A stretch of DNA of 64,000 nt. It comes from Candidatus Uhrbacteria bacterium. Lineage in GTDB: Bacteria > Patescibacteriota > Patescibacteriia > UBA9934 > GWF2-40-263. Both the position numbers and the translations under genes were made by a program. The notes beneath the pieces were generated by a model. It was not told where the DNA came from. It was given only the letters and a program-made list of their open reading frames with translations, and made no database searches. Shown here in pieces: positions 14,495 through 59,135 of the stretch. The DNA is taken from NCBI GenBank assembly GCA_016844925.1, contig JAERTI010000036.1, positions 11,053 to 75,052 of the forward strand. The letters are read 5' to 3'. Each line of letters starts with the position of its first letter. The stretch's first letter is position 1.

Positions 14495-14586
14495 GTGAGC
14501 ACAGTGTACCGCACCGAGGGATTGACAAAAAGGGATAATTCCAACAACATCGAAACGTTCCAACACGGGAACGGAAAGGTGCTCTC

Positions 14587-14901
14587 ATGCGCTATCTGCG
14601 ATGGTACTTGCGTAGCCTCTTCACCATCTTCCTCGGGCTGTACATGGTCAGCATGCCCACCATCCTGAGCCTCAAGCTCATAGACGGTTGGCCCTGGTGG
14701 ACGCTGACGATCCTCACGGCCGCAGTCGGCCTGATCAGCGGCATTCTCGCACTCTTCGGTCTGTTCAGTGGAGAATGCATCCCCACCTCCGAGGACGATG
14801 ACTGGTTCCTCGGCACCATCGTTCACACGGGTGTACACACCTACATCGGCGCCATCATCTTGATCGGACGCTACGCCTGGATCGGACTTCAGGCCAGCTA
14901 G
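14587..14901 (+). CDS. GC-rich small integral membrane protein (104 aa, 2-3 TM)
   Basis: ORF track. TTGACA at ~14523, RBS GGAAAGG, and terminator CCGCGTACGCGG+TTTTTTCTTTT at 14905-14930. Confidence 0.55.
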   Translation: MRYLRWYLRSLFTIFLGLYMVSMPTILSLKLIDGWPWWTLTILTAAVGLISGILALFGLFSGECIPTSEDDDWFLGTIVHTGVHTYIGAIILIGRYAWIGLQAS

Positions 14902-15006
14902 CTCTCAACCGCGTACGCGGTTTTTTCTTTTATGTTACCTGAGATAAACGCATTGACACTCCCTTTATAAGCCGCTAACGTGCCTGCGCCCTCAAAGGAG
15001 AATGTC

Positions 15007-15642
15007 GTGGAATTCTTGATTACCCACCTCACAGGCGTCGAGCCCCACTCGGAGCCTCTCACCCCCGAAGCCGTAGACCAACGTCTGCAGCAAGATCGGG
15101 TGATGTGGTTCATCACCAAGAGAATCGGTGATGGGTGCCGGACGCACGTCCTGTTCCCCAGCACCGTGCCCTCCGCACTGCACGCCGAGCCGGAACAGAT
15201 GCATCCGCCCGATTACAAGAACCTGACCAAGTTGGTCCAGGCGCTCTACCCGGGAAGCCGTCACCGTCGAAGCGTTCAGGGAGGACTCCTGAAGATCGGC
15301 GCGGACGGAAGCGACTGCTGGCGTCTCTCCGCAATCACCAAGCCCGACGAGCCCTGCGCCTCGCGCTACAACGACGTCTGGGCCCTGCACCTGATGCACC
15401 AGTGCGGCCGCATGGTCTGCGTCCGCTCGCCAAACGATCCGGTGGTGGTCTGCAGCCCGGAGGGACTGCACCTGAGCCCCGGCTTCGACGAGGCCGGCAT
15501 GACGCGCTGGACCAGTGAGCAGTTCCTGCACCTGGCCTTCCAGGAGGCCGCGCGCAAGCTCGGACAACGCTTCCAGCCCGTGCCGCTGGATATCAACGAC
15601 AAGGGGAAGGTGACCAAGTACCTCCTCGTCACTCAGGGCTAA
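15007..15642 (+). CDS. GC-rich hypothetical protein (~211 aa); likely GTG start
   Basis: ORF track 14980..15642; AAAGGAG-N6-GTG at 15007; TTGACAC promoter at ~14950; terminator CCGTGTC..GACACGG+TTTTTTATTTTT at 15643-15675, bidirectional and shared with trmB. Confidence 0.5.
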   Translation: MEFLITHLTGVEPHSEPLTPEAVDQRLQQDRVMWFITKRIGDGCRTHVLFPSTVPSALHAEPEQMHPPDYKNLTKLVQALYPGSRHRRSVQGGLLKIGADGSDCWRLSAITKPDEPCASRYNDVWALHLMHQCGRMVCVRSPNDPVVVCSPEGLHLSPGFDEAGMTRWTSEQFLHLAFQEAARKLGQRFQPVPLDINDKGKVTKYLLVTQG

Positions 15643-15669
15643 ACGCCTCCGTGTCTGTGACACGGTTTT

Positions 15670-16443
15670 TTATTTTTCTGGCTGATCAGCTTTAGACCAC
15701 ACCAAATCAAAAAGGGTCTTGTACGTCCGCGCTACATCACCCGAGGCAAGGATGATCATGGCGTTCTCTCTTCGAGTTGTAATAAATGCAACCTGATCAG
15801 CAAAGATAATAACCGTCGCTGGAAGATCAACATCCTTTGGCAGGAAACGCGACTCTCGCAACTCATTGATATCTTTCTCAACAATCTTCCGCGTGGCTCG
15901 ACTCTCAGGAATGAGTTGTTTTGAATGAATCCCTCGTTTTTTTCTTTCAGAAATAATCCGATCAACAAGGTAGGGCTCTTTTACATAATCAAGGAGCCCA
16001 ACCCCAGATGTAATCAAGCGATACTCTTTCACTTCCGACTCCAACAACTGTTTCCACAAGCGCTTAAACCCGTCCGTCCCTTCATAAAACGTCACACCCG
16101 GACCACCACGAGCCGTCTCCTGAAGGAGCTCTAGTGCTGGAACCGTTTTCTCAACCAAGCTCTCTCGCTCACGCATTTGCTCTTCTAAACGTCGCGGGGA
16201 CTCAGCGATGTACACGGTCGTCTTCTTCTCTTTACCGACACGAAACACTCCACGACGACGGAGTCGCTCCAAAATAGGGTAGAGCGTTGTGCGGGGTAGG
16301 CGTGTACGGCGTGAAAACTCCAGGACGCTCGCGCTCCCTAACTCAAGCCCTGCCAAATAAATCTTCGCCTCTTTTTTGTCGAGCCCGTAGGCCTGAAGGC
16401 CTTTCATGAGCTCGGAAGGATAGTGCATACGCATAGTAACCAT
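15670..16443 (-). CDS. TrmB-family transcriptional regulator
   Basis: N-terminal winged HTH (LQAYGLDKKEAKIYLAGLELGSASVLEFSRRTRLPRTTLYPILERLRRRGV) plus the TrmB C-terminal domain. GC is moderate, unlike its flanks. Confidence 0.75.
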   Translation of the reverse strand: MVTMRMHYPSELMKGLQAYGLDKKEAKIYLAGLELGSASVLEFSRRTRLPRTTLYPILERLRRRGVFRVGKEKKTTVYIAESPRRLEEQMRERESLVEKTVPALELLQETARGGPGVTFYEGTDGFKRLWKQLLESEVKEYRLITSGVGLLDYVKEPYLVDRIISERKKRGIHSKQLIPESRATRKIVEKDINELRESRFLPKDVDLPATVIIFADQVAFITTRRENAMIILASGDVARTYKTLFDLVWSKADQPEK

Positions 16444-16559: not shown

Positions 16560-17270
16560 ATGAACTGCTATGTTCACGATCGTGGCCACCGCAGACAGGT
16601 TGCCGGACTCACCCCACATCTTGCCCGCACACATCGTGAAGGCACCCCTATGGATCCAGCTCTCATGTCTCCACTGGATGCGGCCACCTGCCACTGGGCC
16701 GGATGGCGCTTCGGTAAGGGAGTCAGCAGGGGAGAGACGCACGTCTTTGCCATGGCTACGGAGCTCACCTCCGGTCAGCATGCCGATATGGTCCAGGGCT
16801 TCGATCACGTCGATCCTCCACAGGGGTGCTACCACCACAGGTACCGTGTGCACGGCTTCGGTGGATTCCTGCGTTGGGTGTACTTCGCTCATCAGGGCGA
16901 TGCTGTCCTGGGCGTAGACTGGAGCCTGGCTGAGCGTGAGAACGCCGGCGTGGCCCTGTCCATGCTCGATGTGCACCGCCTTGCCGGATCGCTCATCGAT
17001 GCCGGAGCTAACCCCTCCACCACCCTTGCCCTGCTGAACCCGCAGATGTGCGAACCAGCAGAACTCGCTGCTTGGCGTCGTCACCACGGATTGAACACCT
17101 TGCGCGATTGGAGATGTGCCAGAGCCATCCTTGCCCCACACGGCATCCTTTGCGGACGTTGCGGATTGAAAACATTTGTTAGCCCCTGCGCGCGCTTCTG
17201 CGAGCAGTGCGGCGCCCCCAAACACTTGGTTGAGGAGCCCACCCATGGCTTGGAAAACGACCTCCCCTGA
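16560..17270 (+). CDS. GC-rich hypothetical protein with C-terminal zinc-ribbon (CGRCG...CEQCG)
   Basis: Promoter plus AAAGGAGG-N5-ATG at 16560. The antisense ORF 16539..17246 is rejected because it lacks signals and has antisense-like composition. Confidence 0.5.
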   Translation: MNCYVHDRGHRRQVAGLTPHLARTHREGTPMDPALMSPLDAATCHWAGWRFGKGVSRGETHVFAMATELTSGQHADMVQGFDHVDPPQGCYHHRYRVHGFGGFLRWVYFAHQGDAVLGVDWSLAERENAGVALSMLDVHRLAGSLIDAGANPSTTLALLNPQMCEPAELAAWRRHHGLNTLRDWRCARAILAPHGILCGRCGLKTFVSPCARFCEQCGAPKHLVEEPTHGLENDLP

Positions 17271-17613
17271 CTACTGCTTTCATGCGCAGCCCTCGGGACC
17301 ACCTCCCAAGCCTGCGGACACCTACTGCTGCAAGTGCGGTAAGAAGTACGGACACTCAGCCCGCTTCTGCGCCGCTTGTGCCAGGCCGCGCGGCGAGATC
17401 TCGCTGGTCAAGAACCTCATCCCCACACAGTGTGGGGAGTGCAACAAGTCCGTGGAGTCTGACGACAACTACTGCGGCCACTGCAGGACCCCCGTCGACA
17501 AGAGTTGGAAGGAAGTTCCTGCCTGCTCCTGCGGCACTCTGCTTGAGCCCAACGCCCAGTACTGCGGTGCCTGCGGCAAGTCCGTTCCCGGCGCAAGAAA
17601 GGAAGCGTCATGA
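17245..17613 (+). CDS. GC-rich tandem zinc-ribbon protein (three CxxC-N-CxxC ribbons)
   Basis: GAGGAG-N7-ATG at 17245; CCKCG..CAACA, CGECN..CGHC, CSCG..CGACG. It overlaps the upstream ORF end by 26 nt and the downstream start in an ATGA. Confidence 0.55.
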   Translation: MAWKTTSPDYCFHAQPSGPPPKPADTYCCKCGKKYGHSARFCAACARPRGEISLVKNLIPTQCGECNKSVESDDNYCGHCRTPVDKSWKEVPACSCGTLLEPNAQYCGACGKSVPGARKEAS

Positions 17614-17945
17614 TCCTCGACCTGCCTGCACGTCTTCTGGTCTACGCGGCCCTGCACTTCATCGGGGACTTCCCGTTCCAGAGCACCTGGATGGTCATGG
17701 AAAAGGGTAAGAGCTGGGAGATCATGCTCTACCACTGCCTGACCTACACGGCCCCCTTTGCCCTGATGGTCCTCGTACCCTCCATGGCGGACGCAGTCAC
17801 GATGCAAGGCCTCGCCTTCGTCTGTCTGAGCCACATGGTGGTCGACACCCTCAAGGCACGCTACAAGGTGATCAAGGAAATCTGGGTCGACCAGCTCCTG
17901 CACGTCGCCACCTTCGTCTTCTGTGTCGCTGTCGGCTGGCTGTGA
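17610..17945 (+). CDS. GC-rich small membrane protein (111 aa, 3 TM), translationally coupled to the zinc-ribbon gene
   Basis: ATGA overlap at 17610-17613, then terminator CCCCGATACGCATCGGGG+TTTTTTTT at 17950-17985. Confidence 0.55.
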   Translation: MILDLPARLLVYAALHFIGDFPFQSTWMVMEKGKSWEIMLYHCLTYTAPFALMVLVPSMADAVTMQGLAFVCLSHMVVDTLKARYKVIKEIWVDQLLHVATFVFCVAVGWL

Positions 17946-18099
17946 CACGCACACCCCACCCCCGATACGCATCGGGGATTTTTTTTGTGCAAAATAAATA
18001 CCCGCACTTGCTTCCGAAGAAGTGTAGTGCGGGGGAGTGGAGCCACGCGCTGGCTACACACTCAGTGCCCGACGTGCATCAGGCGGGTGTCCTGTCGGA

Positions 18100-19209
18100 C
18101 TAGGCCGCGAAGCGGTTCTCGCTCGCCGCCTCGACCATCTTGGCCACCTGCAGGCCGTAGGGCTTGTCGGTGTCCAGGTTGGTCGGGAAGAAGGACACGG
18201 CGTTCTCGCCGCCGTTGGTGTCGATCTCCTCGATCAGGCCGGCCGTGTGGCTGGCGCGGGTGATGCGGGGCAGCTCGACGTCCTCGCCCAGGTCGGCCAC
18301 CTTCACGCCGAAGGCGCTGTGGGGGATGAGCTGGATGGTGTCGTCGTCGATGCCGACGCTCACGGGGATCGCGGCGTACTCGCCGTCGTCCAGGGACAGG
18401 ATGAAGTTGTCGGTGTTGTCGACGCCCAGGGAGATCTCGGTCACGTTGCCCGGGGTCTGGAACTCGGCCCAGGCCAGCTCGTCCATCTCGCCGGAGAGGT
18501 ACTTGCTGATCTGCTCGGCGCTGACCACGTTCACCACGTTGGTGCCGTAGACGGACTCGAGCAGGAAGCGCGGGGAGTTGGCGTTGACCAGGGTGTTGTC
18601 GACGGTGTCGACGAAGTCGGAGCCGATGACCTTGTAGGACTCCGTGTCCTTGGAGATCATGCCGACCTTGGTGCGGACGCTGTCGCGGCCGATCAGGAGC
18701 AGCGTGGTCGCCTCGTTCTCGGAGCCGACGATGGTGCGGGTCTCGGAGTCGACGTACTGGTCGAAGCGCGCCTGCATGGCCCGCTCGGTCCAGCTGCCCT
18801 CGTAGTCCTGGCCCCAGACGCCGAAGTCGACGTTCTGGTCCATGGCGGTCACGGCGAAGCCGTAGCGCCAGTTCTTGCCCTTGTAGCGGCTCAGCAGCTC
18901 GGTCTTGTCGAGCGTGGCCTGGGCCTCGGTCAGGGACATGCCCTCGGGGGTGTCGACGATCGCGACGATCTGCCGCTTGTGGTCGCTGGCCTTGCTGTCC
19001 TCGCTCAGCTTGAGCGAGTTGTCGCCGTCGGCCACGATGGCCACGGGGTTCAGGCCCTGGTCCTGGATGAAGTCGGTCACGTGGTCGAACTGGCCCTCGA
19101 CGGCCAGGAGCTTGACGCCGCTCTTGTCCTCGTAGGTGTCGAGCTTGAGCGAGCCGATCTTCGGCTTCGTGGCGGCGAGGAGGGCGAGCGAGATGACGAT
19201 CCGGTTCAT
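18100..19209 (-). CDS. GC-rich secreted hypothetical protein (~369 aa) with signal peptide MNRIVISLALLAATKPKIGS
   Basis: ORF track 18100..19287, trimmed to the Met before the signal peptide. Promoter TTGACA..TATAGT at ~19300-19330 with a ~120-nt 5' UTR. The + strand 402-aa ORF 18037..19245 is antisense junk (G/V/D/H-rich). Confidence 0.6.
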   Translation of the reverse strand: MNRIVISLALLAATKPKIGSLKLDTYEDKSGVKLLAVEGQFDHVTDFIQDQGLNPVAIVADGDNSLKLSEDSKASDHKRQIVAIVDTPEGMSLTEAQATLDKTELLSRYKGKNWRYGFAVTAMDQNVDFGVWGQDYEGSWTERAMQARFDQYVDSETRTIVGSENEATTLLLIGRDSVRTKVGMISKDTESYKVIGSDFVDTVDNTLVNANSPRFLLESVYGTNVVNVVSAEQISKYLSGEMDELAWAEFQTPGNVTEISLGVDNTDNFILSLDDGEYAAIPVSVGIDDDTIQLIPHSAFGVKVADLGEDVELPRITRASHTAGLIEEIDTNGGENAVSFFPTNLDTDKPYGLQVAKMVEAASENRFAA

Positions 19210-19471
19210 TGGGAGTTCTCCAGTGTCCGCAGGCGGTTTGGTTGATGCCTTTGGACGTCTCTGCACACCAGTGAACTGCACTGGCACAGTGTTGCCCGTA
19301 TTCGGGACGAACGGCGGGAATACTATAGGAACCCTCTTAGGGTGTCAAGAGATCTGCCCGGGGATAAGTATTTAGCCCTTGTTTTAGGAAAAAAATCGGT
19401 TTTTCTCAGTAAAGTGATTAAGTGCAACGTTTTTACCTCAACGATGAAAAGCGATGCTACAATAAACTTCT

Positions 19472-20554
19472 ATGAAAGACCTTCTTATCCTCCTTGGCAT
19501 CGCCGGACTGCTAGTCGCTTTATTTACCGGCGCCATTTGGGCCGGCTCACGCATGAGCCAGACTCCAGATCTAGAAACAACCCAAACTATAGAACCCGAA
19601 GGAGCACCTGAGCTCCCATACCTGGGAACCATGCCTCCTATAGAAGGTATAGACGGTTGGATTAACAGCAACCCCTTAGTCCAAGACGACTTAGCTGGAA
19701 AAGTCATCCTCATCGACTTCTGGACATACAGCTGCATCAATTGCATCCGCACCCTCCCATATATCCAGTCCTGGCAAGAGAAGTACGCAGACGACGGCCT
19801 GGTCATCCTTGGTGTCCACGCACCAGAGTTTAATTTTGAAAAAGTGTATGAAAACGTTTTGGCAGCTGCTGTGCAGTACGGCCTCACGTACCCCATTGCT
19901 CAAGACAACAACCACACCACCTGGCGGAACTTCAACAACCGGTACTGGCCCGCCAAGTATCTCTTCGACCAAGACGGCAACCTGCGCTACTACCACTTTG
20001 GCGAGGGGAGTTATGAGGAGACCGAAGCCGCCATTCAACAACTCCTCTCTGTCAAAGAAGAAATGACCGAGGAGCTGGCCGTCGATCGTTCTGGCATCAA
20101 CTCTCCCGAGACCTACTTTGGCTACTGGCGCACAGAGAACTTTGCGAGCCCTGAAGGAGTCGTCGAGGACACCCCCACCACCTATACCAACCCGCAGACC
20201 CTCCCACTCAACCATTGGTCGCTCTCAGGCGACTGGTCTATTGAATACCAACACAGCGAGGCGCAAACCTCTGGCGCACGCTTTGCCTTTCACTACAGTG
20301 CCGGCGTTGCGAACCTCGTCATGGCCACGGCAGACGGCACGCTCCAAGACATTGTCGTCTACCTAGACGGCCAAGCGGTCCCAGCAGAACTCCTGGGCGC
20401 CCACACCGTCCGTGACGAGCTCACCGGCGGCACATTCATCCAAGTAGAGTTCTCAGATCTCTACGAACTCATCGCCGGAGAGCCTGGTGAGCACCTTCTA
20501 GAGATCGAGGTCCTTGAACCAGGCCTGCAGATCTACGCGATCACTTTCGGTTGA
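19472..20554 (+). CDS. Membrane-anchored thioredoxin-like (TlpA/DipZ-type) thiol-disulfide oxidoreductase with CxxC (WTYSCINCIR) and a C-terminal beta-rich domain
   Basis: ORF track; redoxin motif recognised by eye. Confidence 0.65.
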   Translation: MKDLLILLGIAGLLVALFTGAIWAGSRMSQTPDLETTQTIEPEGAPELPYLGTMPPIEGIDGWINSNPLVQDDLAGKVILIDFWTYSCINCIRTLPYIQSWQEKYADDGLVILGVHAPEFNFEKVYENVLAAAVQYGLTYPIAQDNNHTTWRNFNNRYWPAKYLFDQDGNLRYYHFGEGSYEETEAAIQQLLSVKEEMTEELAVDRSGINSPETYFGYWRTENFASPEGVVEDTPTTYTNPQTLPLNHWSLSGDWSIEYQHSEAQTSGARFAFHYSAGVANLVMATADGTLQDIVVYLDGQAVPAELLGAHTVRDELTGGTFIQVEFSDLYELIAGEPGEHLLEIEVLEPGLQIYAITFG

Positions 20555-20617
20555 CGTAGCTGCTTTTTCCCCCTAAAGTCGCCATTCGCACCTTCCAGCT
20601 GAACCCGAGGAGACTAC

Positions 20618-21883
20618 GTGACGCAGAAGCTGTTCTATCCAGACAAGGCGCTGAACTTCAGGCCGCTTCCGGAAGTGATGACCCTCATCACCAAGATGGG
20701 GCAGGAATTTAGGCGCCAGACTGAGGTGATTCACCTCCACGAGGACGACGCCTTCTACTTCGCCTACCTCCACACCTACCAGAGCCCTGACGCTCTAGGT
20801 TCGATGGAGTTCAATCAGCGCATGTCCAGATTCGTCGGCCTCGCCGTCGATATCGTGGAGCTCATGATCCGAGAGCACTTCCGCCCCATGGGCGACCTTC
20901 TCTCACTTCACAGCGACATCGCCAACTGCCTCGAACCCATCGAGCTGCTCATCATCGCCACCACCGACCCGGGTGCTGGCGCTTCCCCCCTGGACTTCAG
21001 AAGGCACTTCGAGGCGAGACGGAACCTCGCCATCGCCCTGCAGATCTACGAGATCGAGAAGTGTGACCCAGAGTACTGGGTCGCCAAGGACCTCAGGCAC
21101 ATCGAACAGCTCTGCTGGGGGCGCCTCTTCCTTCGCGGTGTTTCACAGACCATCTGGTTTACCACGCAAATCCCGGAGGATGGGAAGAGTCCCTGCAACA
21201 ACATCAAGCTCGCGTTTGCCAAAAGGCGCGCCAACCGCTTCAGAAGAGAATTCGATCCGACAAAGGGGCCCGTCATGGTCTCGTCCATGATGTGCCGCGT
21301 CGTAAGAATCTCGCGGAATCGTCGACTCATCATCTACGTCGTCAACCGCCGCAAGCGCATCTTCTCCACCCTGCTCAAGATGGAGCGTGGACGAGAACTG
21401 CGTGACCGTCGCGGGTGGAAGTACGTGGTTGTAGGGGTACAGACTGGCAACAAGATCCGCCCTGCCAAGCGAAGCGACGCGGAAGCGTTTGTTGCCTTCA
21501 CGCAAGAGCAACTCTGGAATCCACCTCTGTTCCACGAACCCGACGAATCCGCAGAGAACCCTGACAGCGACAAGGACTACTGGGACCGCAAGATCGTCGG
21601 TCGTTACCATCGAAAAGACAACGGTCGAGTCGTGGGCGCTGCCACCGAACAGCTGGTCACCACCATCCGTGACCATCTCAGCGACAAGTACTCACGAAGC
21701 AATCGCAACCACGAGATGTATCGACACCTTCAGGTGCTCAACCACCTCGGCCCTCTCTGGTTCCCCTCCACACGAGAGCACCTCCAACACCTCAAGTCCG
21801 TCCGCCTCCCAGGCTACGGCGTGAACTGGTACGGCCCCGCCACCAGGGAGACGCTCTGGAACTGGTGGCTCAGCCAGCTCTGA
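20618..21883 (+). CDS. GC-rich hypothetical protein (421 aa), GTG start
   Basis: TTGACG-N17-TAAAGT at 20552-20585; GAGGAG-N5-GTG; terminator CCCGCTTACGCAAGGCGGG+TTTTTTG at 21890-21915. No confident domain assignment. Confidence 0.5.
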   Translation: MTQKLFYPDKALNFRPLPEVMTLITKMGQEFRRQTEVIHLHEDDAFYFAYLHTYQSPDALGSMEFNQRMSRFVGLAVDIVELMIREHFRPMGDLLSLHSDIANCLEPIELLIIATTDPGAGASPLDFRRHFEARRNLAIALQIYEIEKCDPEYWVAKDLRHIEQLCWGRLFLRGVSQTIWFTTQIPEDGKSPCNNIKLAFAKRRANRFRREFDPTKGPVMVSSMMCRVVRISRNRRLIIYVVNRRKRIFSTLLKMERGRELRDRRGWKYVVVGVQTGNKIRPAKRSDAEAFVAFTQEQLWNPPLFHEPDESAENPDSDKDYWDRKIVGRYHRKDNGRVVGAATEQLVTTIRDHLSDKYSRSNRNHEMYRHLQVLNHLGPLWFPSTREHLQHLKSVRLPGYGVNWYGPATRETLWNWWLSQL

Positions 21884-21972
21884 GCCCCACACCCCCGCTT
21901 ACGCAAGGCGGGTTTTTTGATTGACAACCATGTAAGAAACAACTACGTTGACCACCCTGAACAGGAGAAAGG

Positions 21973-22296: not shown

Positions 22297-22391
22297 CACC
22301 ACGCCCAATACGGGGCGTTTTTTCTTTTATTCGCTTCCTGCTGGCGCTCTTTGCTTTCACCCGGTACAGTGATTTTAAGGAGGTAACACAC

Positions 22392-23306: not shown

Positions 23307-23385
23307 CCCCCCTGAGGGTCTTTTTCTTTTTTGTTTAATCCCTGCCAACCAAACAAAAAGCCCTCGCTTTCGCGAAGGCTTTCTG

Positions 23386-39150: not shown

Positions 39151-39184
39151 AAAAAATGGTGATACGCTTTCATCACTGTTTTTA

Positions 39185-49939: not shown

Positions 49940-49977
49940 ACATTCTGTCAATCCATTGTTAACGTGCGTCCTCGCGG
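49940..49977. promoter_or_regulatory. Back-to-back divergent promoters whose -35 hexamers overlap in the palindrome TTGACATTCTGTCAA
   Basis: Read directly; serves 48479..49879 (-) and 49978..51025 (+). Confidence 0.5.
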
Positions 49978-51793: not shown

Positions 51794-51935
51794 ACGGCCA
51801 ACTTCCGACCGCTACGACAGCGGTCGTTTTCTTTTACTTCACAGGGGAAACCTCTTGACAAAGCGCTTTTTTCCGCCTAGGCTCCTCCTCTGGTAACCTT
51901 TCGTTACCGTTCATTCCCTTTCAGGAGGAGAACCC

Positions 51936-53852: not shown

Positions 53853-53927
53853 AAGGTACCCCCACCATCACGCGGTGGGGATTTTTTGTTGTAAGAAAAA
53901 ACCGACCGCGTAACGGTCGGGGACGTA

Positions 53928-55160
53928 CTAGTCGGTGACAACCAGTCGTGCGTAGAGGCGGAGCAGGGTCCGCAGCTCTTCGATCTGCTCTTCGATCTGG
54001 GTGATCTCGGGGAGACCCTCGGTGCTGAACGAACCGACGAGCTCGGTACGCTGCCCATCCAGATCCTTCAGGTCCTTTGCGACGCCGTCACGCGCAGCGG
54101 TCAGCTCCGCGATCTCACGGTCCAGCTCCTCTCGACGAGTCGTGAGGCTGGCGATCTGCTCGTCCAGCCCCTGCGTCGCCTCAGCGAGCTTCTCGCTGGC
54201 CACGCGCTCACGCTGAGCGAGCAGCTCGTCGATCTCGCCCTGGAGCTCCTCCGGCGTCTTCACGCGCGGAGACGCGGGCGGAGCGGGAACCGGGGGCTCC
54301 GGCTCCTCCTCGGGCTCGGACTCCTTCTGCACCAGCTCCTGCCAGCGCTGACACTCCTCCGGCGTGACGAGATCGCCCGCCAGGTTGAAGTACGGCCGGA
54401 GGACCACCACGTACATGGACGGGTCGGTCCGTGAGCGCAGCTTGCCACGCGTCACGTAGAGCAATCCGAGCCCCTTGAGGTCACGAATCATGCTCTGGGG
54501 CGACGTGATGTCCGCATCCTTGAGAACCTCCATGAGCTCCCCGAAGGTGAACTCGCGGTGACCCTCTCGAGCAGAAAACTCGCAAAGGGCCTCGACGGCT
54601 CTCTGTCGACGATCGGATCGAATCACGACCTGATCGGCGTCCGGAGGCATGATCCACGGCCCGTCGGGCAGAGGGCTCGGCCAGATCACTTCCGAAGGAC
54701 CGAGATCACCACGGAGCTTGCCGTCATGACCAGGCTTCTGACCCTTGAGATCCTCGGGCTCCCACCGCTCGTTGTCGTTGGCCTTGCAGATGAAGACCAC
54801 GCCGGAGGTGTAGGGCACCACCGGAACACTCACGCTGCCGACCTCTTCGACGGTCCCGATGGCGTCGCGCTGCTTCTTGAGCACGCCGAGCATGGTTGAG
54901 CCAGGAGTCTTGGCGTGCCAACCGACGATCTCATCGCGAACATCCTGGGGCACCGGACGCTTCCGGTTGTCCCAGAACCACCGCGTCAGATCCTTGACGA
55001 TGGCGTTCTCCACCTTGCCCAAGCGCACCTCGCGCAGGGGCTCCTCGCTCGCTCCAGCTCCGACTGCGCCTTGCATGGCGCTGGCATCGGAACGCGTTAC
55101 CGTTCGTCCTCCGCGCCCTGGACCTTGTCCAGTCGCCTGAGGGGCTGCCTCATTCGGCAT
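53928..55160 (-). CDS. GC-rich hypothetical protein (410 aa) with central winged-helix-like segment and C-terminal coiled coil
   Basis: TTGACA-N17-TAGGGT plus GAGAGGAGG-N6-ATG; terminator CCGACCGTTACGCGGTCGG+TTTTTTCTTAC on the minus strand. Confidence 0.5.
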   Translation of the reverse strand: MPNEAAPQATGQGPGRGGRTVTRSDASAMQGAVGAGASEEPLREVRLGKVENAIVKDLTRWFWDNRKRPVPQDVRDEIVGWHAKTPGSTMLGVLKKQRDAIGTVEEVGSVSVPVVPYTSGVVFICKANDNERWEPEDLKGQKPGHDGKLRGDLGPSEVIWPSPLPDGPWIMPPDADQVVIRSDRRQRAVEALCEFSAREGHREFTFGELMEVLKDADITSPQSMIRDLKGLGLLYVTRGKLRSRTDPSMYVVVLRPYFNLAGDLVTPEECQRWQELVQKESEPEEEPEPPVPAPPASPRVKTPEELQGEIDELLAQRERVASEKLAEATQGLDEQIASLTTRREELDREIAELTAARDGVAKDLKDLDGQRTELVGSFSTEGLPEITQIEEQIEELRTLLRLYARLVVTD

Positions 55161-55204
55161 TGGTACCTCCTCTCAGTGAAAAAACTGAGGGTTGACCCTA
55201 CGTC

Positions 55205-55262
55205 TGCAGCGCCTGGATGTCAAGGTTTTAGCCTTGACAGAGCCCAAACGCACTGTTAACTT
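55205..55262. promoter_or_regulatory. Divergent back-to-back promoters (..GATGTCAAGG TTTTAG CCTTGACAGAG..) forming an imperfect inverted repeat
   Basis: Read directly. Confidence 0.45.
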
Positions 55263-55331
55263 GTGCCTCTTCTGGGCGTTTTACAAAAAACCCCAGATTT
55301 AGGCTCTTTCCCCCCTACCGGAGGTAGCTCC

Positions 55332-56873
55332 ATGACAACGACACCCACCTGGAGTGTTCCCGAGTATGAATACCGGCGTGAGCTGCTGGGTAAGCAGTTC
55401 CACAGGCTCTTCAAGCAGTTCCTCGACGCCAACCGAGGTGACCCGTCACCCAAGACGGCGTTCAAGAGACTGAGCACTTCGGCGGTCGAGGCATTCGCCC
55501 GCGAGCCCACCGATCCGCTCCCTTTCGCCAAGTACTTCCCCAACATCGAGGAAGTCACGGGGATCGACATCGATCGGCTCATGGTCATCGATGCCAAGCT
55601 CAAGCTCATCAAGTTGTGGGAGGATCGATTCCTCCTGCGACGACGTGACGAGCCCCTGGCCTTCCTACTGGACCAGTGCGACGACTTGCCCGAGAGGTTC
55701 GAGTTCGATCGGTACCCAACTCGCGATGAGATTGTGCTGGAAATCCAGGCACTCAGCGACGAGATCGGCTCGCCGATGGTCGCCCAGCAGATGTTCGTGA
55801 ACCAAGGAACGGTCACCAAGTGGTGGGCCGCCAACAAGCCGGGTCGACCGGCAGGCGAAACCCTGATCAAGTGCATCGCCCTGCTGACGGTGGGACCCGT
55901 GCGCTTCCACGGTGGGATCAACTCCCGCGATGACGTCCGATTCCGACTGGTCGTTCGCAACCTTCTGGGCTGCGACCCCCACGAGGTCCTGGGCGTCCGC
56001 AACCTCCCCGAGGCCATCGCGGCACTGGAGCTCGGTGACATCGGCGACATGATCTCTGTGGTGGAGAACCGCACCGGACTTGGTGCTACCACCATCAAGA
56101 ACCTGCGCAAGTGGAGCGCCGAGACCTCCAGCGGCAAGATGCCCGCTCAGAGCATGATGAAGATCATCCGCTTGCTCCTGGCGCGCACCCACCCTGACAA
56201 GCTGACGGACTTCGACGCGGCCGGGAAGCTCTTCCTGGACGCGAAGAACCTCGGCTGGGGCGGCACACCGCTGTTCTGGCCCAAGGTAGTCCAGCAGCCG
56301 AAGCAGCCCGCACCGGAGCCTGAGCCCGTTGTGGCACAGGAGCCGGAGGAACCTGCACCGGAGCCGGCCATGGGACGCAACACCCCCAGTTCGCTCGAGC
56401 TCCTGGAGTTCAAGCGCGCAGTGGTGACGCTGGAACATCTGACCGAGCTCTTTCCTGGACTCCTCGACCAGCTCCCTGAGGCCCTCAAGCCCAAGGTGGC
56501 AGTCGATCCGGAACCGGAGCCCGAACCAGAGCCGGCCGTCGCCGCTCCAGAACCGCCCACCAATGGCGTCACGTCTGAGGTGGACCTGGAGAAGTTGGGG
56601 CCCAAGTGGTTCATCGCGCTGGTGGAGAGCGACAGGCGCCCCACGGCCGGAGAGCTCTCGCAGATCTCCGCGATCCTGCGTGCGTACCCCAAGCTGATCG
56701 GCCGCCTTCTGGGGCTGCCGGTCGAACAACGACGACGTTTCTTCCGAGGCGTTGATGGCTCCATGCTCGCAACCGCCGAGCGACTGCAGGCCGTCGACGC
56801 AACGGAACCCGAACGCTTCCTGAATTTCCTCGACCACGAACTCGAGGACCGGTTCAAGGCCGCAGGAGGCTGA
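55332..56873 (+). CDS. GC-rich hypothetical protein (~514 aa) with a Cro/C1-type helix-turn-helix segment (..SPMVAQQMFVNQGTVTKWWAANKPGRP..) and Pro/Glu-rich linkers
   Basis: TTGACA-N17-TAACTT; CCGGAGG-N8-ATG (MTTTPTW..). The ORF-track start at 55263 is upstream of the RBS. Confidence 0.5.
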   Translation: MTTTPTWSVPEYEYRRELLGKQFHRLFKQFLDANRGDPSPKTAFKRLSTSAVEAFAREPTDPLPFAKYFPNIEEVTGIDIDRLMVIDAKLKLIKLWEDRFLLRRRDEPLAFLLDQCDDLPERFEFDRYPTRDEIVLEIQALSDEIGSPMVAQQMFVNQGTVTKWWAANKPGRPAGETLIKCIALLTVGPVRFHGGINSRDDVRFRLVVRNLLGCDPHEVLGVRNLPEAIAALELGDIGDMISVVENRTGLGATTIKNLRKWSAETSSGKMPAQSMMKIIRLLLARTHPDKLTDFDAAGKLFLDAKNLGWGGTPLFWPKVVQQPKQPAPEPEPVVAQEPEEPAPEPAMGRNTPSSLELLEFKRAVVTLEHLTELFPGLLDQLPEALKPKVAVDPEPEPEPEPAVAAPEPPTNGVTSEVDLEKLGPKWFIALVESDRRPTAGELSQISAILRAYPKLIGRLLGLPVEQRRRFFRGVDGSMLATAERLQAVDATEPERFLNFLDHELEDRFKAAGG

Positions 56874-56996
56874 CACGCGGGTGAGGCACCCCTCGCCCCT
56901 TTTCTCAAGCAACTCATTCATCCTGAATGTGTTGCTGGAGCTAAAGACACGCTCCTTTCATTGTCATCTACCACTTCCCACACTGGAGAGAAGCCC

Positions 56997-59021
56997 ATGG
57001 GCGCTCGAAAGCTGAAGATCGCAGGGGGCGGCATCGACCGTTCCGCACTGCGCAAGAACACGGACGCGTACCTACGCTGGGTGGACATGTTCATCGAGCT
57101 GGCCAGCAACATCGAAGACGCTGGCGGCAACGAGGTCACCATCAAGTTCATGCGCATCAAGCGCAAGCTCTGTGTGCTGGTCTGGGGCAACGGCCCCGGC
57201 GTCATCAACTGGACTCCCTTCGTGAGCCTGCTGAACAGCCCCAGCGAGTCGGACCTGACCAAGCGTGGCAAGATGGGCTCGGGTTCCAAGTCCCCCCTGC
57301 GCCACGGCCAGGAGGTGACCTACCAGAGCCTGCGCCGCGGCGCCTCGCGCCTGCAGCAGCTCAGCTACACCGCCGAGCTGCTGGAGACCATTCTCCACGA
57401 CGGCGTGGAGCCCGAGCTGCTGGAGCTGGAGATCCCGGCCGGCTGCCCCCTGACCGGGAGCGGTCTGCTGGTGACCATCACGGGCATCGGCAAGGGGCCG
57501 TCGCAGTACGTCGACCCCAAGGAGGACCGCTCGTTCAAGCGGGCCATGGAGGACTACTCCACCCTGGCCTCGCGTTCGCTCGCGCACATGACCACGTTCA
57601 TCGACGAGCGTGGGCACAAGCACCAGGTCAAGCCCCGTGAGCTCGACGGCGAGCTCATCGAGCTGACCGGGGAGATCCCCGGTCTGGGCCCCATCGGCGC
57701 GCACGTGTCGGTGGCCAGCAAGCCCAACCGCCAGGAGCGCCTCTCGGTGTGGTCGCACGACCGCGCCTGCACCATGGGAGAGTTCCTGCGCCAGGCGGCG
57801 CGCATCCCGTCCAACCGTGATCTGGCCCTGCGCCTGCTCAAGGTCCTGGACGTCCCGCTCGTGCTCGGCGAGGTGAGCTGCAAGGGCTTCGGTCCGCACC
57901 ACGTCCGTGGGGCCAACACCGGCTTCATGCAGAGCCTGTACAACGACGAGGAGACCGTCTTCCTGTTCCTGCAGTGGCTGCAGGACAACCTGGTGCCCAA
58001 GGTGCTCGCCATCATGGGAGCTCCCGAGCCGGAGCAGGAGACCACCGACTCGGACCTGTGCCGAGAGCTGGTGCAGCGCTTCCAGCAGATCGGCGGCGCT
58101 CCCGAGGACGACACGGACACGCACGACCTGAACACCACGCAGCTGTCCACCGACCCCACGGTCATCACCCTGGAGTGCGGAGACGACTGCTGGATCACGC
58201 TCGGAGGAGCGCCTGAGGGTGCCTCTGTGCGGTGGGATGCCAAGAGCAGCGGAGGCTCGCTCAACCGCACCAGCGGCAAGCGCGTGCACTTCACCGCTGG
58301 CACGGACCGTGGCAAGTACAGGCTGTACATCCACGTGAACAAGGTCGTCCACGCGGTGCAGGTGGAGCTGTTCACCCGCCTGACCCCCAAGCTGCGTCAG
58401 CGCACCCGCACGGGCGCGCCCGACCAGATCATCACCTGGACCCTGGACCACACCGGTCACATCAAGGGCAAGGTGCAGTGGCGTCTGAACCCGCAAGACG
58501 CGGGAACGCTGGAGATCGCCGAGGACACCTTCTCGTGCAGGCACCGCCTGCCGGGCGTGACCACCAAGCCCATCGAGATCTTCCCCACGGGGAAGCTCGA
58601 CGACGGCACGAACATGAACCTCAAGGGCATGGTCATGGTGGCCCCCCGTTCGACCAAGCCGAGGGAATCCACGCCGCGCAAGCGGTCGGCTGTGGAGTGG
58701 ACGCTCGACGGCCACACCTACGCCCTGAAGATGTTCCGCGGCGGAGCGTCCAAGGACCTCGAGTCCTGCATGGTCGACCCGCACGACGAGGAGCCCTACA
58801 CCACGATCTTCATCAACCTGGCGCATCCCAAGTTCCAGGGCTCGGCCACCACGCGTCAGCGGGTGGCCGAGGTGGAGATCGCGGACGCCATCTCGGGTGA
58901 CGAGATGCGTCGCAAGCAGACGAACCTGCGCACCCGCAGGACGCTCAGCGCCGAGGACATGCTCCAGACCGTGCGCGAGCGTGCCAACGAGCTCTTCGTC
59001 CAGCTGATCCAGCTGGGCTAG
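56997..59021 (+). CDS. GC-rich ~675-aa protein with an N-terminal GHKL (Bergerat-fold, Hsp90/MutL/MORC-like) ATPase-like region and a large uncharacterised C-terminal region
   Basis: N-box-like ..FIELASNIEDAGGNEV.., G1-like ..VWGNGPGV.., G2-like ..GKMGSGSKS.. in the canonical order and spacing; GGAGAG-N6-ATG; terminator CCCCGACAACGCAACGTCGGGG+TTTTTTC at 59045-59080. The assignment is motif-based inference only. Confidence 0.5.
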   Translation: MGARKLKIAGGGIDRSALRKNTDAYLRWVDMFIELASNIEDAGGNEVTIKFMRIKRKLCVLVWGNGPGVINWTPFVSLLNSPSESDLTKRGKMGSGSKSPLRHGQEVTYQSLRRGASRLQQLSYTAELLETILHDGVEPELLELEIPAGCPLTGSGLLVTITGIGKGPSQYVDPKEDRSFKRAMEDYSTLASRSLAHMTTFIDERGHKHQVKPRELDGELIELTGEIPGLGPIGAHVSVASKPNRQERLSVWSHDRACTMGEFLRQAARIPSNRDLALRLLKVLDVPLVLGEVSCKGFGPHHVRGANTGFMQSLYNDEETVFLFLQWLQDNLVPKVLAIMGAPEPEQETTDSDLCRELVQRFQQIGGAPEDDTDTHDLNTTQLSTDPTVITLECGDDCWITLGGAPEGASVRWDAKSSGGSLNRTSGKRVHFTAGTDRGKYRLYIHVNKVVHAVQVELFTRLTPKLRQRTRTGAPDQIITWTLDHTGHIKGKVQWRLNPQDAGTLEIAEDTFSCRHRLPGVTTKPIEIFPTGKLDDGTNMNLKGMVMVAPRSTKPRESTPRKRSAVEWTLDGHTYALKMFRGGASKDLESCMVDPHDEEPYTTIFINLAHPKFQGSATTRQRVAEVEIADAISGDEMRRKQTNLRTRRTLSAEDMLQTVRERANELFVQLIQLG

Positions 59022-59135
59022 AGCCGGTCGAGCCACAAAGCACGACCAACCCCCGACAACGCAACGTCGGGGTTTTTTCATTGACAAAAACACCCAGGAC
59101 AGCTACCCTCCGGGCGTTATTTACTCCCATTTATT

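What the first reader, a model, noticed from the sequence alone, without database searches (positions are those of the whole stretch)
14500..59090. Mosaic of high-GC single-gene modules inside a moderate-GC core-gene backbone, each with uniform promoter/RBS/terminator parts
At least six blocks are visibly much more GC-rich than the surrounding core genes: 14.50-15.66, 16.55-19.30, 20.55-23.34, 25.38-26.10, 30.60-32.52, 41.62-42.24 and 48.04-59.09 kb. I judged GC by eye at about 60-66% against about 45-50% for the backbone, and did not compute it. Almost every ORF in these blocks is an independent unit. Each has a near-consensus promoter TTGAC[AG]-N16-18-TAnnnT (e.g. 14949, 20552, 21912, 30603, 41627, 49947, 51846, 55237), a GGAGG-type RBS, a GC hairpin, and a T-run of the specific form TTTTTTCTTT (14918, 22318, 23320, 31597, 42228, 51825, and on the minus strand 48040, 48445, 53890). 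Several modules abut host signals with almost no spacer. At 30600 and 32500 a host terminator T-run runs straight into the module -35 box, and at 59080 the G7 terminator runs straight into the tig promoter. The encoded proteins are mostly secreted/membrane proteins, zinc ribbons and large hypothetical proteins rather than housekeeping functions. About a third of the window being foreign-composition DNA in promoter-to-terminator insulated units is highly atypical. Possible explanations are repeated acquisition from a high-GC donor (e.g. an episymbiont acquiring host genes), a chimeric assembly, or a designed/generated construct.
Basis: seen in the sequence. Interest (0 to 1): 0.9.

Follow-up and report, generated by a model that had tools for sequence, protein, structure and literature searches.

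The report
Codon-biased, Shine-Dalgarno gene class in CPR
The GC-rich patches are real, but they are a resident, long-conserved class of fast-evolving lineage-specific genes in an Uhrbacteria-like (CPR) bacterium rather than foreign, chimeric or designed DNA; each gene has its own promoter, ribosome-binding site and terminator, and codon usage so extreme that one gene uses only G- or C-ending codons.

Summary
Observation confirmed. About 30% of the window (21 genes) is 58-67% GC, against 45-55% for the core genes. The excess is almost entirely at third codon positions: GC3 is 0.66-1.00 versus 0.36-0.69. These genes carry Shine-Dalgarno (SD) motifs (19/21, versus about 3/32 core genes). TTGACA-N17-TAnnnT promoters, hairpin terminators and C-interrupted T-runs are also enriched.

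Independent assemblies at 91-93% identity are collinear through blocks and junctions across window 1.8-23.7 kb, and another covers 56.1-64.0 kb. Relatives with 76-80% identical PolA carry orthologues of most of these genes at the same positions, including the whole eight-gene 48-59 kb block between H+-PPase and tig. Those orthologues are 27-71% identical, versus 71-93% for flanking core genes, yet keep the same GC3 offset (+0.28 vs +0.32) although four-fold sites are saturated. For the two families searched, homologues occur only in this clade.

Best reading: a native gene class whose codon choice is actively maintained, most likely by translation-linked selection on SD-led, strongly expressed, autonomous transcription units. 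These units are gained and lost one gene at a time. Function is unknown and expression is untested. The pattern is unusual because lineage-specific genes of unknown function are normally AT-rich and weakly biased.

The parts
11102..11802 (-).
   Evidence: GC3 0.67, SD GAGGAGG, TTGACA-N18-TAATCT. No Pfam hit. Absent between polA and holA in L086, present in L084 and L087.
14528..14931 (+). 104-aa membrane-protein unit (gene 14587-14901) with its own -35 box and hairpin + TTTTTTCTTTT terminator
   Evidence: GC3 0.82. The whole unit is missing from close relative L084, but an orthologue (53% identity, GC3 0.64) sits next to polA in distant L086.
14953..15675 (+). 211-aa gene (15007-15642), promoter 14953-14981, hairpin terminator 15649-15675
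   Evidence: GC3 0.82; dN/dS 0.27 versus L084; SD AGGAG at the corrected start.
16560..17985 (+). Three + strand genes: 236-aa C-terminal zinc-ribbon protein (16560-17270), a small zinc-ribbon ORF (within 17282-17710) and DUF3307 (17610-17945); terminator 17960-17985
   Evidence: dN/dS 0.19 for the + frame versus 1.09 for the antisense ORF. DUF3307 Pfam hit. Gene calls in L085. The relative carries an IS1595 insertion at window 17960/17988.
18100..19348 (-). 369-aa N-terminally anchored beta-rich protein (18100-19209), about 105-nt conserved structured leader, promoter 19348-19320
   Evidence: 369/369 codons end in G or C, using 27 distinct codons. Orthologue in L086 is 38% identical with GC3 0.95. 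The leader is conserved with compensatory pairs. AF2 pLDDT 86.5 with only generic propeller-like matches. The family has 19 representatives, all on Uhrbacteria-type contigs.
20551..21920 (+). 421-aa gene (20618-21883), promoter 20551-20579, terminator 21894-21920
   Evidence: GC3 0.77; SD GAGGAG; dN/dS 0.14. Orthologues are 64-71% identical with GC3 0.58-0.61 in L086 and L089.
21921..22328 (+). 107-aa single-gene unit (21973-22296) with promoter and hairpin + TTTTTTCTTTT
   Evidence: Window 21931-22327 is precisely absent in L084/L085, from just after the shared -35 box to the end of the terminator. It is also absent in L086.
22372..23331 (+). 304-aa signal-peptide protein (22392-23306) with terminator
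   Evidence: GC3 0.83; SD AAGGAGG; dN/dS 0.18. Orthologues are 51-52% identical with GC3 0.62-0.65.
25360..26153 (-). 225-aa zinc-ribbon + GNAT acetyltransferase (25399-26076), promoter 26153-26125, terminator 25388-25360
   Evidence: Pfam GNAT. GC3 0.85. Orthologues lie next to xerC in L086, L088 and L089 (42-58% identity, GC3 0.67-0.72).
30603..31614 (+). 304-aa gene (30676-31590); the -35 box abuts the upstream terminator
   Evidence: GC3 0.83. Junction read. No orthologue in L088 or L089, so it is the most strain- or lineage-specific unit.
31618..32494 (-). 265-aa gene (31648-32445), promoter 32494-32466, terminator 31645-31618
   Evidence: GC3 0.69; SD GAGGAGG. Orthologue only in L089 (35% identity, GC3 0.54).
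41624..42241 (+). Acidic lipoprotein (41690-42196), promoter 41624-41651, T-run 42232-42241
   Evidence: GC3 0.90. Orthologues at the same comM-uppS position in L088 and L089 are 27-30% identical with GC3 0.87-0.89. Absent in L014, where comM abuts M23.
48032..48362 (-). First gene of the eight-gene block: KH-domain (KhpA-like) protein, 48093-48362
   Evidence: Pfam KH_KhpA-B, E 4e-12. SD AGGAGG. Orthologue in L082.
48421..49951 (-). 465-aa gene (48479-49876), promoter 49951-49923
   Evidence: GC3 0.79; 46% identical to L082; SD AGGAGG.
49937..51025 (+). 339-aa gene (50006-51025), divergent promoter 49937-49965
   Evidence: The most conserved gene of the block (66% identity to L082). GC3 0.74. 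SD GGGAGG.
51041..51835 (+). 250-aa gene with internal duplication; terminator 51806-51835
   Evidence: GC3 0.88 (0.80 in L082); 44% identity.
51855..53890 (+). 638-aa protein with PEPEP-type linker and coiled coil (51936-53852)
   Evidence: Promoter 51855-51883; SD AGGAGG; 41% identity to L082.
53895..55223 (-). 410-aa protein with C-terminal coiled coil (53928-55160), promoter 55223-55195
   Evidence: Only coiled-coil-type sub-threshold hits. 41% identity to L082.
55234..56898 (+). 513-aa gene (55332-56873), promoter 55234-55262
   Evidence: GC3 0.78; 41% identity to L082, 86% to L081; dN/dS 0.19.
56961..59090 (+). 674-aa gene (56997-59021); its terminator runs into the tig promoter
   Evidence: GC3 0.92. 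Only 3 homologues in 5.8e9 proteins. dN/dS 0.39. AF2 model unusable, pLDDT 43. GHKL-like motifs are my reading only, with MutL at E 0.7.

Best explanation
The window comes from an Uhrbacteria-like Patescibacteria (CPR) chromosome that holds two kinds of genes.

The housekeeping backbone has moderate GC3 and essentially no SD motif. It is largely operonic, and some of its genes are probably leaderless.

Interspersed with it is a resident class of lineage-specific genes. Each is an autonomous transcription unit: a TTGACA/TAnnnT promoter, a 15-105 nt leader, a GGAGG-type SD, the coding sequence, and a GC hairpin with a C-interrupted T-run.

Their GC-richness is mostly codon choice. C-ending codons plus AAG, CAG and CTG are strongly preferred, while GGG, CGG and AGG are not raised. 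Selection holds this in place gene by gene. The most likely reason is that these SD-led mRNAs are translated at high rates, so elongation efficiency or accuracy matters.

The genes are inherited vertically at fixed positions. Their proteins evolve several times faster than core proteins, and units are gained or lost one at a time.

Shown: composition, signals, conserved position, fast protein evolution, purifying selection, saturation with a retained offset, single-unit indels. Inferred: that the selective agent is translation or expression level, and what the proteins do.
For: Residency and age. The eight-gene block lies in the same order and on the same strands between H+-PPase and tig in L082/L083. 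Orthologues of the 104-, 369-, 421-, 304-aa, GNAT, 265-aa and lipoprotein genes lie at the same sites in L086, L088 and L089. Homologues of the 369-aa gene lie next to polA in relatives with 62-64% PolA identity.

Retained offset at saturation. Four-fold sites are 27-41% identical, against 25-36% expected when fully randomised. GC4 stays 0.2-0.3 above the backbone in both lineages. The class offset is +0.32 in the window and +0.28 in the relative. Gene-by-gene GC3 correlates between orthologues (rho 0.80, p 0.002). GC3 is unchanged between 92%-identical strains.

Codon-level rather than regional bias. Intergenic GC is 0.52 inside blocks versus 0.47 in the backbone, while GC3 rises by about 0.3. 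GGG, CGG and AGG are not raised, and C outnumbers G 2:1 on the coding strand. GC3 dips at codons 2-16. G/C-ending codons are enriched at conserved residues (Mantel-Haenszel OR 1.12-1.24). tig and rpsO are the most GC3-rich core genes.

Signals. SD 19/21 versus about 3/32. The association replicates on independent gene calls in relatives (OR 11.7, p 1e-7). Promoters and terminators are enriched. The structured leader of the 369-aa gene is conserved.

These are real genes under purifying selection: dN/dS 0.14-0.39.
Against: No expression data exist. The match between class codon preferences and those of tig+rpsO+rpsT (rho 0.42) disappears once G/C-ending and A/T-ending codons are analysed separately, and only 614 reference codons were available.

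The Akashi effect is small and is borderline in the class itself (p 0.05 and 0.11).

Fast-evolving proteins are usually weakly expressed. Near-absolute codon bias (369/369) is stronger than expected for a presumably slow-growing, small-genome bacterium.

Several block proteins look cytoplasmic and have no obvious reason to be abundant.

Only 64 kb plus about 130 kb of relatives was examined, so genome-wide generality is untested. The tRNA set and the 16S 3' tail were not available.
Confidence: 0.6

Rival explanations
1. GC-biased gene conversion. The class sits in recombination hot spots, such as strain-variable accessory loci, and repeated conversion drives every free site to G or C.
For: The regions are indel hot spots between strains. 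dS between 92%-identical strains is lower in the class (0.11-0.27) than in many core genes (up to 1.0), which could reflect recent exchange. Intergenic GC is slightly raised, by 5 points.
Against: The bias is strand-asymmetric and codon-specific. C-ending outnumbers G-ending 2:1, all 27 Gly codons of the 369-aa gene are GGC with no GGG, and the GGG:GGA ratio is unchanged (CGG:CGA rises only slightly) while other G/A-ending pairs shift 3-14 fold. Intergenic spacers stay near 52%. Adjacent core genes a few hundred bp away are unaffected. Low dS is also what strong codon selection predicts.
Confidence: 0.15
2. Ancient horizontal acquisition from a GC-rich, SD-using donor or mobile gene pool, with composition and signals retained since.
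For: Composition, SD use and promoter/terminator insulation all differ from the backbone. The units occupy intergenic junctions that are empty in more distant Patescibacteria: PPase-tig are adjacent in L015, L002 and L075, and comM-M23 are adjacent in L014. tRNA-His, tRNA-Arg and a tyrosine recombinase are nearby, and a duplicated tRNA-His 3' end lies at 23377-23405.
Against: An ancient origin cannot explain present composition, because synonymous sites are saturated yet the offset persists and tracks each host's own GC. No homologues were found outside the clade for the 674-aa and 369-aa families. There were no phage or plasmid hits. Arg and Gly codon choice follows the host pattern rather than a typical high-GC genome. 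The promoter type is shared with core genes.
Confidence: 0.12
3. Cargo of integrated mobile elements, prophage remnants or defence islands.
For: Fast evolution, strain-variable content and proteins of unknown function. IS1595 and PIN-MazE insertions occur in the same regions of the close relative. The 674-aa protein shows GHKL-like motifs (sub-threshold).
Against: There are no mobility, replication or virion genes inside the blocks and no PHROGs hits; the only PADLOC hits are weak and coiled-coil type. No att-like or flanking repeat family was found. Positions are identical across deep relatives. The IS and toxin-antitoxin genes that did insert recently are not GC-rich and lack SD.
Confidence: 0.08
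4. Assembly chimera or a designed or generated sequence.
For: None beyond the visual regularity of the parts.
Against: L084 and L085 come from different samples, give identical hit tables, and are collinear with the window at 91-93% identity over 1845-23725. L081 covers 56088-63999. PolA of the close relative is found on 14 contigs. Deeper relatives share the architecture.
Confidence: 0.01

Closest known systems
Predicted highly expressed genes: translational codon bias coupled to strong SD sequences (established knowledge from codon-usage studies; recalled from memory, not read here)
   Same: The bias is concentrated at synonymous sites and C-ending codons are preferred. It comes with strong SD, strong promoter and terminator. 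Bias intensity is conserved between orthologues, dS is reduced, and GC3 dips at the 5' end.
   Different: Here the extreme class consists of lineage-specific, fast-evolving proteins of unknown function, not ribosomal proteins or elongation factors. The housekeeping genes, including tig, rpsT and rpsO, lack SD altogether. One gene reaches 100% G/C-ending codons. Expression was not measured.
Compositionally atypical genomic islands from horizontal transfer
   Same: A sharp GC contrast with the backbone, location between conserved syntenic core genes, proteins of unknown function, strain-level presence/absence, and nearby tRNA genes and a recombinase.
   Different: Islands are usually AT-richer than the host, patchily distributed, and drift toward host composition. 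These genes are GC-richer, hold fixed positions over deep divergence, show no drift, and have no donor homologues or mobility genes.
S-layer and other major surface-protein genes (established knowledge: very strong promoters, long stabilising 5' leaders, strong terminators, rapid sequence divergence)
   Same: The 369-aa gene has a consensus -35 box, a conserved structured leader of about 105 nt, extreme codon bias, an N-terminal anchor, a beta-rich fold and only 38% identity between related genomes.
GC-biased gene conversion tracts
   Same: Local GC3 elevation in variable, possibly recombining loci.
   Different: The bias is asymmetric between strands, specific to certain codons, and largely absent from adjacent spacers.
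Integron gene cassettes
   Same: Single-gene units gained and lost individually.
   Different: Integron cassettes lack promoters, carry attC sites and sit next to an integron integrase. Here each unit has its own promoter and terminator, no attC-like repeats were found, and the units are scattered.

Membership tests
Recently acquired genomic island (HGT) | Composition atypical for the host | tested here: met
   GC 0.58-0.67 versus 0.45-0.55; GC3 0.80 versus 0.52.
Recently acquired genomic island (HGT) | Absent from, or differently placed in, related genomes | tested here: not met
   Same positions in L082, L086, L088 and L089, and by gene map in relatives with 62-64% PolA identity. Exceptions: 21973-22296 and 30676-31590 have no orthologue in the relatives examined.
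Recently acquired genomic island (HGT) | Homologues in a plausible donor lineage | tested here: not met
   The 674-aa family has 3 hits, all in the CPR clade. The 369-aa family has 19 representatives on Uhrbacteria-type contigs. Phage and plasmid searches gave nothing. Only two families were searched exhaustively.
Recently acquired genomic island (HGT) | Composition drifting toward the host's (amelioration) | tested here: not met
   GC3 is identical between 92%-identical strains. The offset is +0.32 versus +0.28 at synonymous saturation.
Recently acquired genomic island (HGT) | Mobility genes and att repeats at the borders | tested here: inconclusive
   No integrase or att sites within or at the borders of the blocks. 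However, xerC-like 26170-27294, tRNA-Arg 25237-25313, tRNA-His 23554-23628 and a 29-nt duplicate of the tRNA-His 3' end lie nearby.
Translationally selected, highly expressed gene class | Bias concentrated at synonymous sites and specific to certain codons | tested here: met
   GC1 and GC2 barely differ while GC3 rises by 0.3. C-ending codons, AAG and CAG are preferred, and GGG, CGG and AGG are not. Spacers are only 5 points higher.
Translationally selected, highly expressed gene class | Same preferred codons as ribosomal-protein and other highly expressed genes | tested here: inconclusive
   rho 0.42 (p 0.001) against tig+rpsO+rpsT, but not significant within G/C-ending or A/T-ending subsets. 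Only 614 reference codons were available.
Translationally selected, highly expressed gene class | Preferred codons enriched at conserved residues (Akashi test) | tested here: inconclusive
   Mantel-Haenszel OR 1.15-1.24 (p 0.026 and 0.0006) in core genes; OR 1.12-1.19 (p 0.11 and 0.048) in the class. The direction is right but the effect is small.
Translationally selected, highly expressed gene class | Bias intensity is gene-specific and conserved between orthologues | tested here: met
   rho 0.80, p 0.002, n=12. The 369-aa gene has GC3 1.00, 0.997 and 0.95 in three genomes.
Translationally selected, highly expressed gene class | Strong initiation signals (SD, promoter) | tested here: met
   SD 19/21 versus about 3/32. 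Relatives give OR 11.7. Promoter motif 12/21 versus 5/32.
Translationally selected, highly expressed gene class | Measured high mRNA or protein abundance | not testable with these tools
   No transcriptome or proteome data are accessible.
GC-biased gene conversion tract | W->S bias that is strand-symmetric and independent of coding status | tested here: not met
   C:G is 247:122 on the sense strand; GGG is absent; spacers are about 0.52 GC.
Integron cassette array | attC sites, promoterless cassettes, adjacent integron integrase | tested here: not met
   No repeat family. Each unit has its own promoter. The units are dispersed.
Prophage or integrative element | Virion, replication or integration genes and att borders | tested here: not met
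   No PHROGs hits, no phage DNA or protein match, no att repeats.
Assembly chimera | Junctions unsupported by independent data | tested here: not met
   Junctions in 1.8-23.7 kb and 56.1-64 kb are reproduced at 91-93% identity in assemblies from other samples. Read-level support on the source sample was not testable.

The most novel reading that the evidence does not exclude
This CPR lineage runs two parallel gene-expression dialects in one small genome. Housekeeping genes use non-SD, partly leaderless initiation, with T at -1 and weak codon bias. A conserved but rapidly evolving set of lineage-specific genes uses leadered, SD-dependent initiation with near-absolute G/C-ending codon usage. Under this reading the second dialect is more than ordinary high expression. 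It would mark a separately controlled translation regime, for example a distinct ribosome state or tRNA-modification state, or mRNAs hardened against an A/U-targeting RNase. That regime would be dedicated to surface or host-interaction functions and to the unknown eight-gene system next to the replication origin.
Probability: 0.2. Interest if true: 0.8.

Novelty: new variant of a known kind. Interest (0 to 1): 0.58.

Why it matters
Accessory and lineage-specific genes in bacteria are normally AT-richer and less codon-adapted than core genes. Sharp GC contrasts are routinely read as horizontal transfer or mis-assembly. Here the contrast is a stable, selected property of native genes. It therefore warns against composition-based HGT and contamination calls in CPR genomes.

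It also offers a sequence-only handle (SD plus GC3) for picking out a probably strongly expressed, fast-evolving gene set in organisms that cannot be cultured. That set includes a conserved eight-gene cluster of unknown function beside the origin, and a beta-rich anchored protein that may be a major surface component.

The co-existence of SD-led and non-SD genes in one genome makes the question of how CPR ribosomes choose start sites directly testable.

Tried and rejected
Exact-protein look-ups of window proteins (tig, the 638-aa ORF, PNPase P0124) found nothing on record.

H+-PPase was too conserved to select close relatives in genome contigs, though the loci still gave synteny.

Pfam, PHROGs, PADLOC and NCBIfam gave no meaningful hits for nearly all class proteins.

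The AF2 model of the 674-aa family was too poor to use (pLDDT 43), so no fold search was run on it. Its GHKL ATPase reading rests only on my motif inspection and a MutL hit at E=0.7.

The confident model of the 369-aa protein matched only generic beta-propellers. afdb50 was unavailable.

A first leaderless test on window genes alone was not significant: 6/32 against about 5 expected. The pooled test was significant but counts orthologues repeatedly, so leaderless initiation is reported only as suggestive.

My crude ORF picker for distant Patescibacteria loci chose shadow ORFs even in the window, and that comparison was discarded.

The metagenome scan added only one short contig.

The last two context look-ups returned gene maps without DNA, so GC3 could not be tested in relatives with 62-64% PolA identity.

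Literature searches found no description of this pattern in CPR.

Full report
**1. What is there**

GC is 0.58-0.67 at 14.5-15.7, 16.5-19.3, 20.5-23.3, 25.4-26.1, 30.6-32.5, 41.6-42.2 and 48.0-59.1 kb, against 0.45-0.55 elsewhere. There are also two low-GC patches, near 8-9.5 kb and 37.4-40 kb.

Per gene, the difference lies almost entirely at third codon positions. GC1 and GC2 barely differ, but GC3 is 0.66-1.00 (mean 0.80, 21 genes) versus 0.36-0.69 (mean 0.52, 33 genes). I call the GC-rich genes class B and the backbone class A. Class B coding sequence is 19.4 kb, 30% of the window.

The long ORFs antisense to class B genes are shadow ORFs. When sense GC3 approaches 1, the matching antisense frame cannot contain T-initial stop codons. 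For 16539-17246(-), dN/dS is 1.09, against 0.19 for the sense frame.

**2. Who it is**

The backbone genes are polA, holA, rpsT, rmuC, TrmB, a thioredoxin-like gene, xerC-like, DsbA-like, MFS, rpsO, NYN, pnp, lspA, comM, uppS, an M23/LysM peptidase, rnhB, H+-PPase, tig, an IMPase, rnpA, yidD and dnaA.

The nearest PolA and PNPase sequences come from uncultured Patescibacteria. Named hits at 60-77% identity are Candidatus Uhrbacteria. Almost none of the class B proteins has a Pfam, NCBIfam, PHROGs or PADLOC match. The exceptions are a GNAT domain, a KhpA-like KH domain and DUF3307.

**3. Not a chimera, not synthetic**

Contigs from two other samples (L084 and L085) give identical blastn hit tables against the window. 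They align with it collinearly at 91-93% identity over 1845-23725, through the class B blocks and their junctions. A third contig (L081) covers 56088-63999.

The differences between these strains are discrete:
- The 104-aa unit next to polA is missing from L084, although it is present in the distant relative L086.
- The 107-aa unit (21931-22327) is missing, from just after a shared -35 box to the end of its terminator.
- L084 has an IS1595 transposase inserted at window 17960/17988.
- L084 has a PIN-MazE toxin-antitoxin pair inserted at window 23330/23354.

The "module" idea is therefore right: single promoter-to-terminator units come and go. No flanking repeat family or att-like site accompanies them.

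**4. Not recent foreign DNA**

The 674-aa protein of the 48-59 kb block has only three homologues among 5.8 billion proteins, and a metagenome scan added nothing new. One homologue lies on a 90.6-kb Parcubacteria-group contig (L082/L086, PolA 80%). That contig carries the entire eight-gene block between H+-PPase and tig, in the same order and on the same strands.

In more distant Patescibacteria, H+-PPase and tig are adjacent, and comM abuts the M23 gene. The units are therefore additions to an older backbone, but old ones. Orthologues of the 104-, 369-, 421-, 304-, 225- (GNAT), 265-aa and lipoprotein genes sit at the same places in L086, L088 and L089.

An exhaustive HMM search with the 369-aa protein found 19 cluster representatives in 1.84 billion proteins. 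Gene maps place a homologue directly beside polA in a relative with 64% PolA identity, and one gene away in a relative with 62%.

Class B proteins diverge much faster than their neighbours. Against the 80%-PolA relative they are 41-66% identical, while flanking core proteins are 74-93%. Against L081 (window 56-64 kb) they are 86-92% identical, versus 96-99%. They remain under purifying selection, with dN/dS 0.14-0.39 against 0.01-0.11 for core genes.

**5. The composition is maintained, not inherited from a donor**

Between the window and the 80%-PolA relative, four-fold sites within conserved residues are 27-41% identical. Full randomisation would give 25-36%. So synonymous sites are saturated in both classes.

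Even so:
- Class B GC4 is 0.69-0.88 in the window and 0.51-0.72 in the relative, against 0.33-0.66 and 0.29-0.42 for core genes.
- The mean GC3 offset is +0.32 in one genome and +0.28 in the other.
- GC3 is correlated gene by gene between orthologues (rho 0.80, p 0.002).
- Between 92%-identical strains, GC3 is unchanged (0.82/0.82, 0.77/0.78, 0.83/0.84, 0.92/0.92).

A relic of transfer would have decayed. An ongoing, gene-specific force is required.

**6. Nature of the force**

Spacers inside class B blocks are 52% GC, against 47% for backbone spacers, so the effect is largely confined to coding third positions.

The codon shift is not a uniform move toward GC:
- Strongly preferred: ATC 0.91, TTC 0.94, TAC 0.93, AAC 0.92, AAG 0.95, CAG 0.88.
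- Also favoured: CTG/CTC, GGC, CGC, CCC/CCG.
- Not raised: GGG (0.13), CGG (0.10) and AGG (0.08); CGT and GGT persist.

The extreme case is 18100-19209(-). All 369 codons end in G or C (247 C, 122 G), only 27 distinct codons are used, and every Gly is GGC. The close relative has 368 of 369. The 38%-identical orthologue, in a genome whose core GC3 is about 0.38, has about 4 A/T-ending codons in about 364.

The excess of C over G on the sense strand, together with the sparing of GGG and CGG, argues against a strand-symmetric process such as biased gene conversion. It favours selection acting on the mRNA or on decoding.

Further support is weaker:
- GC3 dips at codons 2-16 in both classes.
- tig and rpsO are the most GC3-rich core genes.
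- G/C-ending codons are modestly enriched at conserved residues. The Mantel-Haenszel OR is 1.15-1.24 in core genes (p 0.026 and 0.0006) and 1.12-1.19 in class B (p 0.11 and 0.048).
- The correlation with tig+rpsO+rpsT codon preferences (rho 0.42) does not survive stratification by the ending base.

**7. Expression signals differ by class**

This was the unexpected result. A GGAG/GAGG-core SD precedes 19 of 21 class B genes but only about 3 of 32 core genes. tig, rpsT, rpsO, H+-PPase, polA and dnaA have none.

On independent gene calls in seven relative loci (112 genes), SD presence predicts elevated GC3 (Fisher OR 11.7, p 1.4e-7).

The TTGACR-N16-18-TANNNT promoter motif is enriched tenfold: 17 matches versus 1.8 expected. 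Twelve sites serve class B and five serve core genes, so it is the organism's own promoter type.

Perfect hairpin terminators follow 11 of 21 class B genes versus 4 of 32 core genes. The C-interrupted T-run occurs 13 times versus 1.6 expected, 9 of them just after class B genes and none after core genes. Terminator T-runs abut the next -35 box as described.

Core genes instead show T at -1 (74% versus 36%, p 0.002). In about a quarter of cases a TAnnnT box, often TGnTATACT, ends 6-10 nt before the start (22 observed versus 10.5 expected; none in SD genes). This suggests leaderless transcripts. However, orthologues are counted repeatedly in that test, and a window-only test was not significant.

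**8. What the proteins are**

Its promoter and its leader of about 105 nt are far better conserved than the protein. Two hairpins in the leader show compensatory changes. That combination resembles major surface-protein genes, but this is an analogy, not a membership claim.

The 674-aa protein could not be modelled.

**9. Verdict**

The foreign, chimeric and designed explanations are rejected.

The best-supported account is a native, positionally conserved, rapidly evolving gene class built as autonomous SD-led transcription units. Its extreme G/C-ending codon usage is actively maintained, most likely by translation-linked selection (confidence about 0.6).

The main rivals are biased gene conversion (0.15) and ancient transfer with retained features (0.12). 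Ancient transfer may describe the origin of these genes but cannot explain their present composition.

The pattern runs opposite to the usual one, in which genes of unknown function are AT-rich and weakly biased, and I found no description of it in the literature searched. Expression data and a whole-genome analysis are the decisive missing pieces.

Noticed in passing
window 23377-23405 and 23545-23573: A 29-nt direct repeat (90% identical) duplicates the 3' end of tRNA-His (23554-23628, minus strand) 168 bp away. It looks like the scar of a past integration or excision at this tRNA. It lies beside the 20.5-23.3 kb block and close to where the close relative carries a PIN-MazE insertion.
   Followed up: partly
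window, starts of core genes (e.g. 14494 polA, 43133 uppS, 20554-side Trx 19472); relatives L086, L088, L089: Non-SD genes have T at -1 in 74% of cases (SD genes 36%). About a quarter have a TAnnnT box, often TGnTATACT, ending 6-10 nt before the start codon. This suggests leaderless mRNAs driven by extended -10 promoters.
   Followed up: partly
window 19210-19348 (minus strand): The promoter and the ~105-nt 5' leader of the 369-aa gene are much better conserved than the protein. RNAalifold predicts 30 pairs, 4 of them with compensatory double changes, so this may be an mRNA-stabilising or regulatory leader. It matches no Rfam family.
   Followed up: partly
L084/L085 6124-6912 and 386-1016 (window 17960/17988 and 23330/23354): The 92%-identical strain carries an IS1595-family transposase and a PIN-MazE toxin-antitoxin pair inserted in the class B regions. 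These recent arrivals are not GC-rich and lack SD motifs.
   Followed up: partly
window 8000-9600 and 37400-40050: Two low-GC patches (0.38-0.45): rmuC, and a 404-aa gene plus a dksA-like gene and lspA. Their orthologues are low-GC3 in relatives too, so gene-specific GC3 is conserved at the low end as well.
   Followed up: partly
window 1-2590: The + strand ORFs 210-659 and 1038-1826 are probably shadows. Relatives show a giant gene (2,500-3,200 aa) on the minus strand running off the window's left end, followed by a conserved cluster of large secreted proteins (1167, 312 and 311 aa).
   Followed up: no
window 56997-59021: The 674-aa family has invariant residues that resemble GHKL (Bergerat-fold) ATPase motifs (E34/N38/D41/G43, G64-N65-G66-G68, G91/G94/G96). 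The only database support is a MutL N-terminal hit at E=0.7, so this is a lead and not a finding.
   Followed up: partly
window 51435-51476 / 51705-51746 and 52159-52366: There are internal duplications within class B proteins: a repeated ~42-nt segment in the 250-aa gene and a 79-nt PEPEP-linker repeat in the 638-aa gene.
   Followed up: no
window 45989-47980: The H+-PPase is about as similar to Proteobacteria (up to 70%) as to most other Patescibacteria (61-76%). This may reflect strong conservation or an old inter-phylum transfer.
   Followed up: no
window 61283-62450: The apparent 1.2-kb gap before dnaA holds a PF1765-like ORF, yidD and rnpA (minus strand), which is the classic origin-proximal arrangement. 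The eight-gene class B block therefore lies about 3 kb from the likely replication origin.
   Followed up: partly
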